41,200 nt of DNA. It comes from Paraspadella gotoi (taxonomy: Eukaryota > Animalia > Chaetognatha). A program made the translations under genes and the position numbers. The notes beneath the pieces were generated by a model, which was given only the letters and a program-made list of their open reading frames with translations, made no database searches and was not told where the DNA came from. The stretch covers positions 12,276,894 to 12,318,093 of the forward strand of contig CM119266.1 of assembly GCA_051294375.1 (NCBI GenBank), given 5' to 3'. Positions 27,477 to 30,706 of this stretch are shown here, one piece after another (the first letter of the stretch is position 1; every line of letters starts with the position of its first letter).

Positions 27477-27857
27477 TTAAAACCTGAAGAGGTCTTCCGC
27501 CAGCGACTCCTCGGCGGCGGCGGAGAGAGTCGTCCACGTCCTCGGATCCTCGAACTTGGCGAGGTTGTTGGCGGGATTGACGGGATCGAGAACGAGCGGG
27601 AACTCGATCCTCGTCTCCGATCGAATCTCCTCCTCCGAGTAGTTGACCGTCCAAAAGACGTTCAACACTCCGGGATCCTTCAGCCTCGTCAACATTCCGC
27701 GCAGGGCGACGAGCAGCTGGAAGCGCAGGCGCCCGCGAAGGATTGTCTCCCAGTGGTTGATGCAGAGCAGCTCGAAGAGATAGGACGGGACGCGGCCGCC
27801 GTTGTAGCGAGGGCGGACGACGCGCTTGTACCAAAATTTGACTAGGAGGATCAGGTC
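27477..27857 (-). CDS. OAS: OAS-like protein, exon 2 (aa 400-525): OAS1_C domain
   Basis: After the (CT)n-TAG acceptor, phase 0 gives DLILLVKFWY (cf. LIRLVKHWY), PSYLFELLCINHWE (cf. PQYALELLTVYAWE), VFWTVNY (cf. IYWTKYY), PLVLDPVNPANNL (cf. PVILDPADPTGNL), WTTLSAAAEESL, then the stop at 27477. Same frame as ORF 27477..27695. Confidence 0.92.
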   Translation of the reverse strand, partial: DLILLVKFWYKRVVRPRYNGGRVPSYLFELLCINHWETILRGRLRFQLLVALRGMLTRLKDPGVLNVFWTVNYSEEEIRSETRIEFPLVLDPVNPANNLAKFEDPRTWTTLSAAAEESLAEDLFRF

Positions 27858-27987
27858 CTAAGAGAGAGAGAGAGAGAGAGTAAGACGAGAAAGCCGAGAG
27901 AGAGAGAGAGAGAGAGAGAGAAAATTTATTCTTGAATGCACCAAAATTCTTGACTTTCTTCAGCATCACAACATAATAATAACTCAC
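27858..27987 (-). other. 130-nt GT-AG intron of the OAS gene
   Basis: GTGAGT donor, (CT)n polypyrimidine tract and TAG acceptor. Removing it joins ...DRVK to DLILLVKFWY and restores the OAS consensus. Confidence 0.9.
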
Positions 27988-29184
27988 CTTGACTCTGTCG
28001 CAGTCACCGATCTTCTGCAGCACGAACCGCTTCTGCAGCTCCGCCAACGAAGTATTAAATTCTGATCCTTGAATCTTCCCCGCGACGAGGCTCCACGAGA
28101 CGACGCCGTCGACGAGGCATTCCGGAAGAAGTTCGTAGGCGACGAGGACGTCCACGGCGACGCCGTCGATGGTCGTGGAGAAGCCGAATGGCGCCTTCAA
28201 GGCGCAGTCTCGCCGGGAACTCCGTTCGCAAACCGCGCATTCTTGGAAGCTCCACATGACGGACTTGAGAAAAACTTCACGATACTTTCTGAATATCTCG
28301 CGGGTCGAGAATTCGAGACTTTCAGTTCCCAGTACGATACTTTTTGCGAAGACGACGACGTCCAAGTCGGCGTGTCCGCGAATAGCGGTGCCTCGTCCAA
28401 GAGAACCGCTTTTCAACACCTTGGAGGCGGCGACGGATTCCAGATGTTGAGTGAGGCAGGTGTGAATTTGACCCATGACTCCTCCGTAGCGTCGTTTGTC
28501 CTCTTCGGAGAGACGAACCATTTCGGACAGGCACTTGTTGAGATCCTTCTCCGTTTTTGGAAATCCCAAACACGCCGTCAAGCCTTTTGGGCTTGAATCA
28601 GCGGCCGTTCCGTGGAGGTTAGCCAGTTGCATTTTCGGTTTAGTCTCCTCGGTTATAGGTGGCACAAGATTTGAGACAGAAGGAATTGCCTGGCTCTGAT
28701 TGGACCTTGGCCTCGGCCTGGCTTCCGGAGGCGGAGGCGCCATGCGTCTGGGACGATTCCGGACTAGAGGAGGTCCTTGAAGCTGGATCATGTTTGTAGG
28801 AGGTGGTGGAGCAGCCAAGGCCCCGGGCCAGCTTCTTCCATATTGCGCCATCGGCACAGATGCAGAAACCGTCGGCGGCAGCACAAAGACGCCTCCTGAA
28901 ACCCCGGAATTGGCCGTGGCCGTCGACCCATTGTTGGCGTTCGATTCGGACGTATTGCAGTCCCTCCCCGCAGTGACGTTCTGGACCTTTCCGATTTTTT
29001 GCCATTTGCAAAAACCAAAGGCAGCAAGGAACCCGACAATGACTAGGCCAACCAATGCCATTAAGATTGCCCAGCAGATAGTGAAGGAGCAATCGCAGCC
29101 GTAATATCTGCTGGTCAGCGAGCAAAGGCTGCAACTCGCCGTTTTTAAAAGGTCCGGTGCAACGCATCGATGTAAAAACGACAT
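27988..29184 (-). CDS. OAS: OAS-like 2'-5'-oligoadenylate synthetase, exon 1 (aa 1-399): Cys-rich N-terminus, TM helix, Pro-rich linker, nucleotidyltransferase lobe
   Basis: 1197-nt open frame from ATG 29184 (acaATG, in-frame TAA 9 nt upstream). OAS motifs: GSLGRGTAIRGHADLDVVVF (P-loop-like GS plus D273-x-D275), VAVDVLVAYELL (third Asp D345, cf. OAS1 VEFDVLPAFDAL), FNTSLAELQKRFV (cf. FSTCFTELQRDFL). Ends at phase-0 donor AAG|GTGAGT. Confidence 0.92.
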
Positions 29185-29324
29185 TGTATTTTAAACTGTC
29201 GTTAATGCGAAGGAAAATTTCTCTTTTGATCCGTTGGCTCTAGAAGAAAACGCCAAATAATTTCAAGTTTGAATTTTTTTTTTTATTAAACTTCAACGAC
29301 TTTTCTCAAGGCATACGTAAGCTT

Positions 29325-29372
29325 CTCCTATTGGTTGATTTTAAAAAAGCACGCGTTCAACGGCCAATATTG
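29325..29372 (-). promoter_or_regulatory. Possible OAS promoter: two oppositely oriented CCAAT boxes
   Basis: ATTGG at 29330 and CCAAT at 29364, 150-180 bp upstream of the ATG. Motif match only. Confidence 0.25.
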
Positions 29373-29449
29373 TTATGGAAACATGTCGAGAGAAGGACAA
29401 GATTCGTGTCGCAAGATCATTTTAAAATTCTGAGAAATATACTTAACTT

Positions 29450-29588
<139 letters not shown>

Positions 29589-30534
29589 CTAATATCATAC
29601 AAAGATCATGCCTTCACGCATGAATAAGCATTTAAAAAGGCAAGAATAGAACAAAGCCGACTCTTCGATATGTTTGGTTAACTTAAAATTTAAGTTAAAT
29701 ACTAGTCCCTTCCGGCCGGAACAAAATAGCGCTGAACCGAAGGTAGAAATGCGGTTGCAACAGAAGAATCGAGTGAAGAAATTGCTGATTGCGACGCGCA
29801 TCCCCCTCAAAATTTGTCCCCATTATATTTTGACAATTGGCGAAATTTGGAAATTGCGTTTGGATTCTGAGTCTAGGAAAAAGTTTAACCAATTTTGAAA
29901 AAAAGAAATTCGACGACCCTCCGCGGTTCGAGTTTTTTATCGTTTCATTAAAGATTGAGTCAGCTAATTTGTCATTCTTTGAAAAAGTCTCGATATATTT
30001 CTCAGAAAAAGTCGTGTTTGGGTGGTAACTACTACGACGTCTCGACTATCGAGCCAACGCATAAAATGAGCTTAATTTTGATATTTACATTCGAATCAGG
30101 TAGCATAAGGCTTTAGTCGGGGAATAGAATTAATTTATGCTTTTTTATTATTCAAATACTTATTTGTCAATAAATATTGAAACTTTATTATTAAACACTA
30201 AATGTACTTAGTTTACTAAATAACAATAAAATTGAAAAAAAAACACTAAAAATAAAACCCTGTGGACGCAACAAGTGGGGGAAATTGAGCGAGGGTATAT
30301 AATTTTCCTACAATACCTACAATATTTTATTATGGCACTATGATGCGATAAACCTTTCGTTTTCGTTGTTATTAGGATTTATTATGGCACTAAACTCGGC
30401 GGAGATTCAATCAATTATAATCTTTCGTAGTTTTTCTTAGCTAAAAATAGTCGGGCGAGTCTTTCTATCCCAACTTTTAATCTCTTTTCTCACCATCTTC
30501 CCCCCCCCCTCTTTTCGTCTGTTCCTCATTTCAG

Positions 30535-30706
30535 CCCGGGGGGCAGAGTTTATCCCGAGCCCCGTCGGGTCAGACCCCCGCGTCCCCACCGCCCCGGGAG
30601 AAGGAAGAGGAAGAGGACGAGGAAGCCGTTCCTTTCGGCGAGGAAGACGACGACGAGGAAAGGAGGAGGAGAGGAGGAAAAGAGACGGACAGAAGAAGGA
30701 TCATTG
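30535..30706 (+). CDS. Candidate host-gene exon (acidic/basic low complexity)
   Basis: Strong polypyrimidine-CAG acceptor and G|GTGAGT donor. Phase 0 reads PGGQSLSRAPSGQTPASPPPREKEEEEDEE...RRII, compatible with the phase-0 donor at 24339. Another frame is also open. Confidence 0.6.

What the first reader, a model, noticed from the sequence alone, without database searches (positions are those of the whole stretch)
27477..29184. Membrane-anchored OAS: Cys-rich N-terminus, TM helix and Pro-rich linker fused to an intact 2-5A synthetase
Seen: one stop-free exon encodes six Cys in aa 1-37, a 26-aa hydrophobic stretch (aa 34-59, FTICWAILMALVGLVIVGFLAAFGFC, nt 29008-29085), a ~150-aa Pro-rich linker and, from about aa 210, an OAS fold with all three catalytic Asp. 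Established: OAS enzymes are cGAS-related Pol-beta-family nucleotidyltransferases that sense dsRNA. Vertebrate members lack TM helices and reach membranes by lipidation (OAS1 p46 CaaX prenylation, OAS2 myristoylation), which matters for sensing viral replication organelles. Inference: this is a receptor-like integral-membrane OAS, an independent route to membrane targeting in an invertebrate innate immune system. I do not know of a described TM-OAS but cannot verify novelty.
Basis: partly seen in the sequence, partly recalled or inferred. Interest (0 to 1): 0.88.

Follow-up and report, generated by a model that had tools for sequence, protein, structure and literature searches.

The report
Receptor-like membrane-anchored OAS enzyme
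This spliced eukaryotic gene joins an enzyme of the antiviral OAS family to a predicted membrane-spanning helix and a small six-cysteine module that three related lineages also keep, so it likely makes nucleotide signals from a fixed place on a cell membrane, in a receptor-like layout I did not find described for this family.

Summary
A two-exon minus-strand gene encodes 525 aa: six Cys (aa 7-37), a hydrophobic helix (aa 38-59), a low-complexity linker and an OAS domain with D273/D275/D345. One assembled contig of run X1 covers leader, ATG, helix and enzyme and lacks the 130-nt intron. The N-terminus is no one-off: three further lineages (P0005, P0006, P0038) keep all six Cys, the helix and a basic patch behind it, while the linker has drifted; P0005 and P0006 are only 51-53% identical in the enzyme. 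The charge bias predicts a type III topology, Cys module outside or luminal and enzyme in the cytosol. The clade also has fixed active-site changes (pig OAS1 S73, S186, P150), so "intact 2-5A synthetase" and dsRNA sensing are unproven. New is the conserved N-terminal Cys module plus TM on an OAS with an intact catalytic triad. The organism was not identified; activity, location and ligand are untested.

The parts
27196..29412 (-). Span covered by one spliced contig (record 7 of run X1): leader, both exons, 3' UTR
   Evidence: table 8
29185..29412 (-). 5' leader with two minimal upstream ORFs (ATG at 29384, 3 aa; ATG at 29314, 2 aa) and an in-frame stop at 29193-29191
27988..29184 (-). Coding exon 1, aa 1-399
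27858..27987 (-). 130-nt GT..AG intron, phase 0, with CT repeats before the acceptor
27477..27857 (-). Coding exon 2, aa 400-525 and stop; Pfam OAS1_C
   Evidence: E 2.2e-20
29074..29166 (-). Six-Cys module, aa 7-37 (C7, C18, C21, C30, C32, C37), predicted luminal or extracellular; no known family found
   Evidence: conserved in P0005, P0006/11/12, P0038; searches gave no family
29008..29073 (-). Predicted transmembrane helix, aa 38-59, ending in a Cys and followed by Lys residues
28585..29007 (-). Low-complexity Ser/Thr/Pro linker, aa 60-200, poorly conserved
27988..28584 (-). OAS nucleotidyltransferase lobe, aa 201-399
   Evidence: model of relative P0003 matches porcine OAS1 4rwn, Z 27.6
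28360..28371 (-). A272 (Ser73 in pig OAS1) and catalytic D273, D275
28204..28239 (-). Clade-specific Cys cluster C316, C319, C327 in the beta3-beta4 region
28150..28152 (-). Third catalytic Asp, D345
28054..28056 (-). N377, at the place of acceptor-pocket Ser186 of pig OAS1

Best explanation
The gene encodes an OAS-family nucleotidyltransferase fused behind a conserved six-cysteine module and a predicted single membrane helix, which likely anchors it N-out/C-in so that the enzyme would hang in the cytosol on a flexible tether and likely make short oligonucleotide messengers at that membrane. Shown: gene structure, one spliced contig from leader to 3' UTR, OAS fold, catalytic triad, conservation of Cys module and helix in four lineages. 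Inferred: (1) insertion as an uncleaved signal anchor (type III) in the secretory pathway; (2) three disulfides in the Cys module and palmitoylation of the Cys residues behind the helix; (3) the module serves sorting or binding of a luminal or extracellular partner, while the enzyme is switched on from the cytosolic side, most likely by RNA close to the membrane, as for lipid-anchored OAS1 p46 and OAS2; (4) the product is a 2'-5'-linked oligonucleotide but possibly not pure 2-5A, because Asn replaces the Ser that contacts the acceptor base.
For: Spliced contig spans ATG, helix and enzyme with 0 coding differences. A pattern of six Cys plus L, G and W matches 6 of the 44 proteins held, four distinct lineages, each directly followed by a hydrophobic stretch; best KD19 2.27-2.75 in P0001, P0005, P0006/11/12. 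Net charge of 15 residues after minus before the helix is +3, +6, +7, +3. 0 of 28 OAS proteins outside the clade has such a stretch before its first P-loop (only 5 have an extension over 19 aa). The five complete clade domains form one branch, 100/100, and the window protein is the deepest split, so the layout spans the clade. Model of P0003 (pLDDT mostly above 80 over the domain) matches porcine OAS1 best: Z 27.6, rmsd 2.8, 299 aligned. G61, S62, K65 (R here), D74, D76, D147, Q193, K212, E233 of pig OAS1 are kept in 5 of 5. Membrane attachment is needed for antiviral action of OAS1 p46, OAS2 and Oas1b, by three different anchors (PMC13372824, passages).
Against: No activity, location or ligand was measured. 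S73, a pyrophosphate contact in pig OAS1 (PMC13129866, passages), is Ser in 32 of 32 other units but A/M/L in 5 of 5 clade members; S186 is N, P150 is V/A/G, the R129 column holds Cys. Basic residues that I recall as dsRNA contacts are only partly kept (R194 K, K203 R, K205 K kept; R198 is L in the window and K in four relatives; R209 is L in all five). Sponge OAS are said to act without dsRNA (PMC6307210, passages). P0003 and P0004 belong to the clade and lack the module; their contigs leave only 388 and 375 spare bases, so truncation is plausible but not shown. The window's linker has 4 N-glycosylation sequons against 1.5 expected (P 0.047), though P0005 has 0 and P0006, P0038 are at chance. 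The Cys module is not resolved by AlphaFold2 (pLDDT 40-59, 5 sequences).
Confidence: 0.5

Rival explanations
1. True receptor-enzyme: the six-Cys module binds an extracellular or luminal ligand (a cytokine, microbial or allorecognition cue), clustering brings the OAS domains together, and a nucleotide messenger is made without cytosolic RNA, in the manner of a receptor guanylyl cyclase but with an OAS domain.
For: The module is conserved residue by residue while the linker is not. The size and the lack of a signal peptide recall type III TNF receptors such as BAFF-R and BCMA (recalled). A [VI]PY[AG]VL motif (YxxL, ITIM-like) sits in the linker of 3 of 4 TM-bearing lineages. Human OAS2 is regulated by dimerisation at Golgi membranes (bioRxiv 10.1101/2025.01.28.635220, passages). 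dsRNA-contact residues are only partly kept.
Against: The linker is 140-255 aa, low in complexity and variable, a poor lever across the membrane. The window protein lacks the Tyr motif, and one such motif arises by chance in 8-28% of shuffled linkers. Cys spacing differs from the TNFR modules as I recall them, and the PDB profile search matched BAFF-R only through the TM, E 1.3.
Confidence: 0.22
2. Membrane adaptor with weak or no catalysis: the OAS fold binds a nucleotide or RNA and recruits partners, as for mouse Oas1b and, from memory, MiD49/MiD51.
For: Loss of S73, P150 and probably R129 in 5 of 5 clade members. Both TM-bearing precedents are non-synthesising: Oas1b lacks 2-5A activity (PMC13372824); MiD49/51 (recalled; MiD49 is listed at Z 13.3).
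Against: All three Asp, the P-loop, Q193, K212 and E233 are invariant across domains only 51-83% identical; inactive OAS units in the same alignment lose the triad. R129A keeps 62% activity in pig OAS1.
Confidence: 0.15
3. Other topology or membrane: a type II protein with a cytosolic, metal-binding or palmitoylated Cys tail and a luminal or extracellular OAS on a glycosylated stalk, or a mitochondrial outer-membrane signal anchor like MiD49/51.
For: Four sequons in the window's linker, three within 26 aa of the helix. CxxC and CxC can bind zinc (general knowledge). A basic patch behind an N-terminal helix is also typical of mitochondrial signal anchors (recalled).
Against: Charge bias is C-side positive in 4 of 4 lineages; sequons are not conserved; the enzyme needs NTP and Mg; helix hydrophobicity is high (2.3-2.75).
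Confidence: 0.09
4. The N-terminal part is an accidental open extension and the working protein starts at a later Met as an ordinary soluble OAS.
For: Met at 112, 132, 148, 185 and two upstream ORFs; P0003 and P0004 are called without the module.
Against: Six-Cys spacing recurs in three other lineages (loose pattern found in 0.09-0.9% of shuffles each; the pattern was drawn from these sequences, so this is generous); M1 has A at -3; the contig covers M1.
Confidence: 0.04

Closest known systems
Mammalian OAS1/OAS2 (porcine OAS1 4rwn/1px5, human OAS1 4ig8, human OAS2 9h1z)
   Same: OAS fold (Z 27.6 and 25.3), P-loop, three Asp, OAS1_C domain; membrane attachment is a recurring need in this family.
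   Different: Under 29% identity to any unit outside the clade; anchor is a predicted N-terminal helix with a Cys module instead of a prenyl or myristoyl group; S73, S186, P150 replaced; extra Cys cluster in the N-lobe.
Mouse Oas1b
   Same: An OAS held in a membrane by a TM segment (PMC13372824 and PMC5473748, passages).
   Different: Oas1b is anchored at its C-terminus and lacks 2-5A activity; here the anchor is N-terminal, carries a conserved six-Cys module, and the triad is intact.
Non-vertebrate OAS (group OASb of PMC10400998; sponge, mollusc, amphioxus, echinoderm)
   Same: Single NTase + OAS1_C unit without ubiquitin-like domains, outside the jawed-vertebrate branch in my tree; SY in place of QY/KY as in several invertebrate units.
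   Different: Long separate branch (1.44 changes per site); none of the named non-vertebrate proteins retrieved has an N-terminal TM. Mytilus proteins have a C-terminal hydrophobic tail instead.
MiD49/MiD51 (cGLR superfamily)
   Same: From memory: N-terminal TM, disordered linker, nucleotidyltransferase fold in the cytosol.
   Different: Other superfamily (Mab21; Z 13.3 against 27.6), no catalysis and no six-Cys module (recalled).
Type III small receptors and adaptors (BAFF-R, BCMA, Fn14; WBP1/VOPP1/TMEM52/Shisa-like)
   Same: From memory: short Cys-rich ectodomain, one TM, juxtamembrane Cys, Pro-rich tail. P0006 scores weakly on TMEM52 (E 0.0028, below cut-off).
   Different: No significant sequence or structure match; Cys spacing differs as recalled; none carries an OAS domain to my knowledge.
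Bacterial CdnC and CdnE CD-NTases
   Same: CdnC 6p80 is the third structural match (Z 21.9). In CdnE an Asn above the acceptor site selects uracil and N166S shifts the product to cAA (PMC10442399, passages); N377 here replaces the acceptor-contact Ser186.
   Different: That N377 is the same position as CdnE N166 is my recollection-based inference and was not shown by any alignment here.

Membership tests
OAS family (NTase + OAS1_C) | OAS1_C domain (PF10421) above the curated cut-off | tested here: met
   exon 2: 73.5 bits against 19.9
OAS family (NTase + OAS1_C) | N-terminal Pol-beta-type NTase lobe with P-loop and three catalytic Asp | tested here: met
   Motif aa 258-279 and D345 align with pig D74, D76, D147; NTP_transf_2 itself is below cut-off for exon 1
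OAS family (NTase + OAS1_C) | OAS1-like three-dimensional fold | tested here: met
   Model of relative P0003 (58% identical), not of the window protein: 4rwn Z 27.6
Canonical 2-5A synthetases (OAS1-3) | Acceptor and pyrophosphate pocket residues S73, R129, S186, T190 of pig OAS1 | tested here: not met
   A272, probably C327, N377, A381; residues named in PMC13129866 and PMC6307210
Canonical 2-5A synthetases (OAS1-3) | Synthesis of 2'-5' oligoadenylate from ATP | not testable with these tools
   needs an enzyme assay
Canonical 2-5A synthetases (OAS1-3) | Activation by dsRNA through a basic surface | tested here: inconclusive
   recalled contact residues partly kept; no surface or binding test
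OASa (jawed vertebrate OAS1-3, OASL) | Branches within the jawed-vertebrate group | tested here: not met
   outside the 20-row branch, 96/99
OASb (non-vertebrate OAS-related) | Branches with the OASb sequences of PMC10400998 | tested here: inconclusive
   their set was not available; in my tree the clade's place is open and long branches meet
Type III single-pass membrane proteins | One hydrophobic helix near the N-terminus, no cleaved signal peptide, basic residues on the C side | tested here: inconclusive
   hydropathy, charge bias and AlphaFold2 helix agree; no topology predictor or experiment; P0038's called start has an extra hydrophobic stretch
TNF receptor superfamily (BAFF-R/BCMA type) | TNFR cysteine-rich domain | tested here: inconclusive
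   no Pfam or PDB match for the module; model too poor for a fold test
WBP1/VOPP1/TMEM52/Shisa-like adaptors | Family Cys pattern before the TM | tested here: inconclusive
   1 of 11 proteins scored on TMEM52, below cut-off; 0 of 3 N-termini did; Atlas score 0.78 is under its lead mark
cGLR / MiD49-51 | Mab21 domain | tested here: not met
   no Mab21 hit at E up to 1 for either exon; OAS1_C instead

The most novel reading that the evidence does not exclude
A family of single-pass receptor-enzymes in which a new 30-residue, three-disulfide ectodomain senses an outside or luminal cue and drives a cytosolic OAS domain to make a non-canonical, possibly pyrimidine-containing 2'-5' messenger: the first OAS switched on from across a membrane and not by cytosolic dsRNA.
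Probability: 0.2. Interest if true: 0.92.

Novelty: new variant of a known kind. Interest (0 to 1): 0.7.

Why it matters
OAS enzymes are found in many eukaryotes that have no RNase L or interferon, and what they sense and make there is open (PMC10400998, PMC6307210). In mammals, antiviral action depends on reaching membranes by late add-on anchors. A clade that has kept an integral N-terminal anchor with its own Cys module over about one change per site shows an independent and durable solution, and gives a concrete protein with which to ask whether an OAS can work as a transmembrane receptor. The fixed Ser-to-Asn change in the acceptor pocket predicts a different product, which one LC-MS experiment can test; sponge extracts do contain 2'-5' heteronucleotides whose enzymes are unknown (PMC2852836).

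Tried and rejected
No whole genome is held for this window, so paralogues, RNase L and STING could not be sought. Taxon: 75 other reading frames of the window gave no Pfam hit above cut-off; no named protein falls in the clade; three clade motifs were absent from 5 supplementary text files of PMC10732462. X1 showed no cover over 29590-30315, which fits an RNA run but proves nothing. Family of the Cys module: profile search of longer proteins returned only P0005 and P0006 among 2249 candidates (weak by design); Pfam on 3 N-termini gave only TM-type hits with E 0.03 or worse; PDB profile only TM matches; Atlas best 0.83, all shown rows small proteins, and nothing for the module alone; fold searches of the low-confidence model gave E above 4 and Z at most 4.6. 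Homodimer prediction of aa 1-70: no answer, score 0.02. A DxL ligand motif as in BAFF-R (recalled) occurs in the window's module but not in the three other lineages: rejected. Hydrophobic stretches in P0019 and P0016 lie between tandem OAS units of long shark or ray models and look like gene-model joins: not counted. Equivalence of N377 with CdnE N166: two paper searches found nothing and the paper that defines the lid residues is not held. Earlier scan notes: none on this sequence or genome. Literature searches for a described N-terminal TM-OAS listed none; 'transmembrane' occurs 0 times in the main text of PMC10400998 and PMC6307210. The supplement of PMC10400998, which holds domain architectures, could not be read, and subscription papers (Kjaer 2009, Pari 2014) are not held, so prior cataloguing is not excluded.

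Full report
Gene. The minus strand carries exon 1 at 29184-27988, a 130-nt GT..AG intron and exon 2 at 27857-27477, giving 525 aa with no internal stop. M1 follows an in-frame TAA by two codons and has A at -3; two minimal upstream ORFs lie in the leader. Exon 2 is Pfam OAS1_C (73.5 bits, cut-off 19.9); exon 1 scores on SMODS and NTP_transf_2 only below cut-off, but its 7 PDB matches are six OAS chains and CdnC.

Transcript. One run, X1, holds 0.89 of the sampled words. Its record 7 (2092 nt) lies on 27196-27854 and 27987-29412, which is the locus minus the intron; the 3 substitutions and one 5-base insertion all lie in the leader. So leader, M1, helix and enzyme are on one spliced contig, and nothing in exon 1 is spliced out of it. 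Limits: one run of one study, assembled contigs, RNA status guessed by the tool, and the joint row was dropped by the tool at a repeat, so the splice is read from piece coordinates. Translation from M1 is not shown.

Relatives. Three database searches and two cluster look-ups gave a small set of close, unnamed relatives: P0003 (JGI), P0004, P0005, P0006 with P0011/P0012, P0038 with its shorter cluster mate P0022 (ENA), and fragments P0009 and P0018. In a tree of 33 OAS units (4 incomplete units of 37 dropped) the five complete clade domains form one branch, 100/100, on a long stem; the window protein splits first and is 51-58% identical to the others and at most 29% to anything else. The clade's position among non-vertebrate OAS is unresolved, and no taxon could be assigned; 'invertebrate' is untested.

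The N-terminal module is conserved. P0005, P0006/11/12 and P0038 keep all six Cys, L23, G29 and W38. One pattern, C-x9-14-C-x2-C-x-L-x4-6-G-C-x-C-x-[FY]-[ST]-x-C-W, matches 6 of the 44 proteins held, four distinct lineages, and in each a hydrophobic stretch, one to five Cys and a Lys/Arg patch follow. The linkers behind it differ in length (about 140-255 aa) and barely align. Of 28 OAS proteins outside the clade none has a hydrophobic stretch before its first P-loop. Against: P0003 and P0004 are called without the module. Their contigs leave 388 and 375 spare bases, P0004 starts at a place matching about aa 130 of P0005, and P0003 has a VPY motif 22 aa after its start, like the one 30 aa behind P0005's helix; truncation is likely but not shown.

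Topology. Net charge after minus before the helix is +3, +6, +7, +3, which by the positive-inside rule (established knowledge) puts the C-terminus in the cytosol and the six Cys in an oxidising space. AlphaFold2 models aa 32-67 as one helix, confident over aa 41-60, and leaves the module unresolved. The window's linker has four N-glycosylation sequons (P 0.047 against shuffles), which would suit the opposite topology, but P0005 has none and the other two are at chance. P0038's called start has 37 extra residues with a Phe-rich stretch that may be read-through of non-coding sequence or a signal peptide. No family was found for the module (see Tried and rejected).

Enzyme. A model of the whole OAS domain of P0003 matches porcine OAS1 at Z 27.6, human OAS2 at 25.3, CdnC at 21.9 and MiD49 at 13.3; the window's own spliced protein was not folded. 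Using pig OAS1 numbering, G61, S62, T67, D74, D76, V78, D147, L149, T187, Q193, K212, E233 and D300 are kept in 5 of 5 clade members and K65 is K or R. Four places differ in all five: S73 (Ser in 32 of 32 other units, from 16 of the 28 outside proteins; the fragment P0020, left out of that count, also has Ala) is A/M/L; S186 (29 of 32) is N; P150 (29 of 32) is V/A/G; and the R129 column holds C327, part of a C316-x2-C319-x7-C327 cluster in a loop that the model resolves poorly. S73 contacts pyrophosphate and S186 the acceptor and donor bases (PMC13129866, passages; PMC6307210, section 13). In bacterial CdnE an Asn above the acceptor selects uracil (PMC10442399, passages); that N377 is the same position is my inference from memory. 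Sponge extracts make 2'-5' heteronucleotides and use UTP and CTP (PMC2852836, passages). The triad's conservation argues for catalysis; the product and the activator are open.

Mechanism. Most likely (0.5) a type III membrane protein whose cytosolic OAS domain is tethered to a membrane and activated from the cytosolic side, the Cys module serving sorting or partner binding. The receptor reading (0.22) has the module's conservation and a shared [VI]PY[AG]VL motif in 3 of 4 lineages in its favour, and the long floppy linker and the window's lack of that Tyr against it. A non-catalytic adaptor (0.15), another topology (0.09) and an untranslated extension (0.04) follow.

Comparison and novelty. 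It is a member of the OAS family by domain, motif and fold, but fails the pocket features of canonical 2-5A synthetases. TM anchoring of an OAS is known: mouse Oas1b has a C-terminal TM and no 2-5A activity (PMC13372824 and PMC5473748, passages; the original Courtney 2012 paper was not read), and Mytilus OAS proteins retrieved here end in a hydrophobic tail (KD19 1.5-1.85). MiD49/51 have a similar order of parts in the cGLR superfamily (recalled). Six literature searches (listings only, apart from the papers named) and passages of two OAS surveys, one CD-NTase survey and one cGLR survey (PMC10400998; PMC6307210; PMC10732462; PMC9980059) showed no OAS with an N-terminal Cys module and TM; the unread supplement of PMC10400998 and subscription papers may bear on this. 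Earlier scan notes report other fusions on non-vertebrate OAS, so domain accretion as such is common. Verdict: a real, expressed, conserved and apparently undescribed receptor-like variant of OAS; interest 0.70.

Noticed in passing
window 24340-30534 (+ strand): The OAS gene may be nested, on the opposite strand, in a 6.2-kb intron of another gene: record 6 of X1 has an exon at 30535-30706 (good acceptor and donor) with about 420 upstream bases that lie elsewhere, and an ORF from ATG 23989 to a donor at 24340 ends in AAG and would join it in frame.
   Followed up: partly
window 13498-18792 and 19794-24866: Tandem duplication of about 5.3 kb at 89% identity, each copy with a tRNA-Ala(CGC) on the minus strand (17471-17547, 23598-23670) and a copy of the Pro-rich ORF named above.
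   Followed up: partly
P0021, P0029-P0033 (Mytilus OAS, last 30 residues): Mussel OAS proteins end in a hydrophobic stretch (KD19 1.5-1.85) followed by a short charged tail, a possible tail anchor like mouse Oas1b's.
   Followed up: partly
window 28204-28239 and 28456-28458 (- strand): C316, C319, C327 and C243 are invariant in the 5 clade domains and could form a zinc site in the N-lobe; human OAS2 uses zinc at a different site to dimerise. Geometry not resolved.
   Followed up: partly
linkers of P0005 (aa 94), P0006 (aa 134), P0038 (aa 160): Shared [VI]PY[AG]VL motif, a YxxL sorting or ITIM-like signal, in otherwise unalignable linkers; the window protein has no Tyr there.
   Followed up: partly
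P0004, P0005, P0006 behind the DxD strand: Gly/Ser-rich insertions of about 60-105 aa inside the NTase lobe, absent from the window protein and P0003.
   Followed up: no
P0020 (ENA fragment, 128 aa): Shares SGS in the P-loop and Ala before the first Asp with the window protein but has only a short N-terminus; a possible TM-less sister of the clade.
   Followed up: no
window 25156-25516 and 22094-22286: Imperfect inverted repeats, possibly small transposons; 22094-22286 has a copy at 15891-16091.
   Followed up: no
window 29185-29412 (- strand): Two minimal upstream ORFs in the leader could damp translation of the OAS gene.
   Followed up: no
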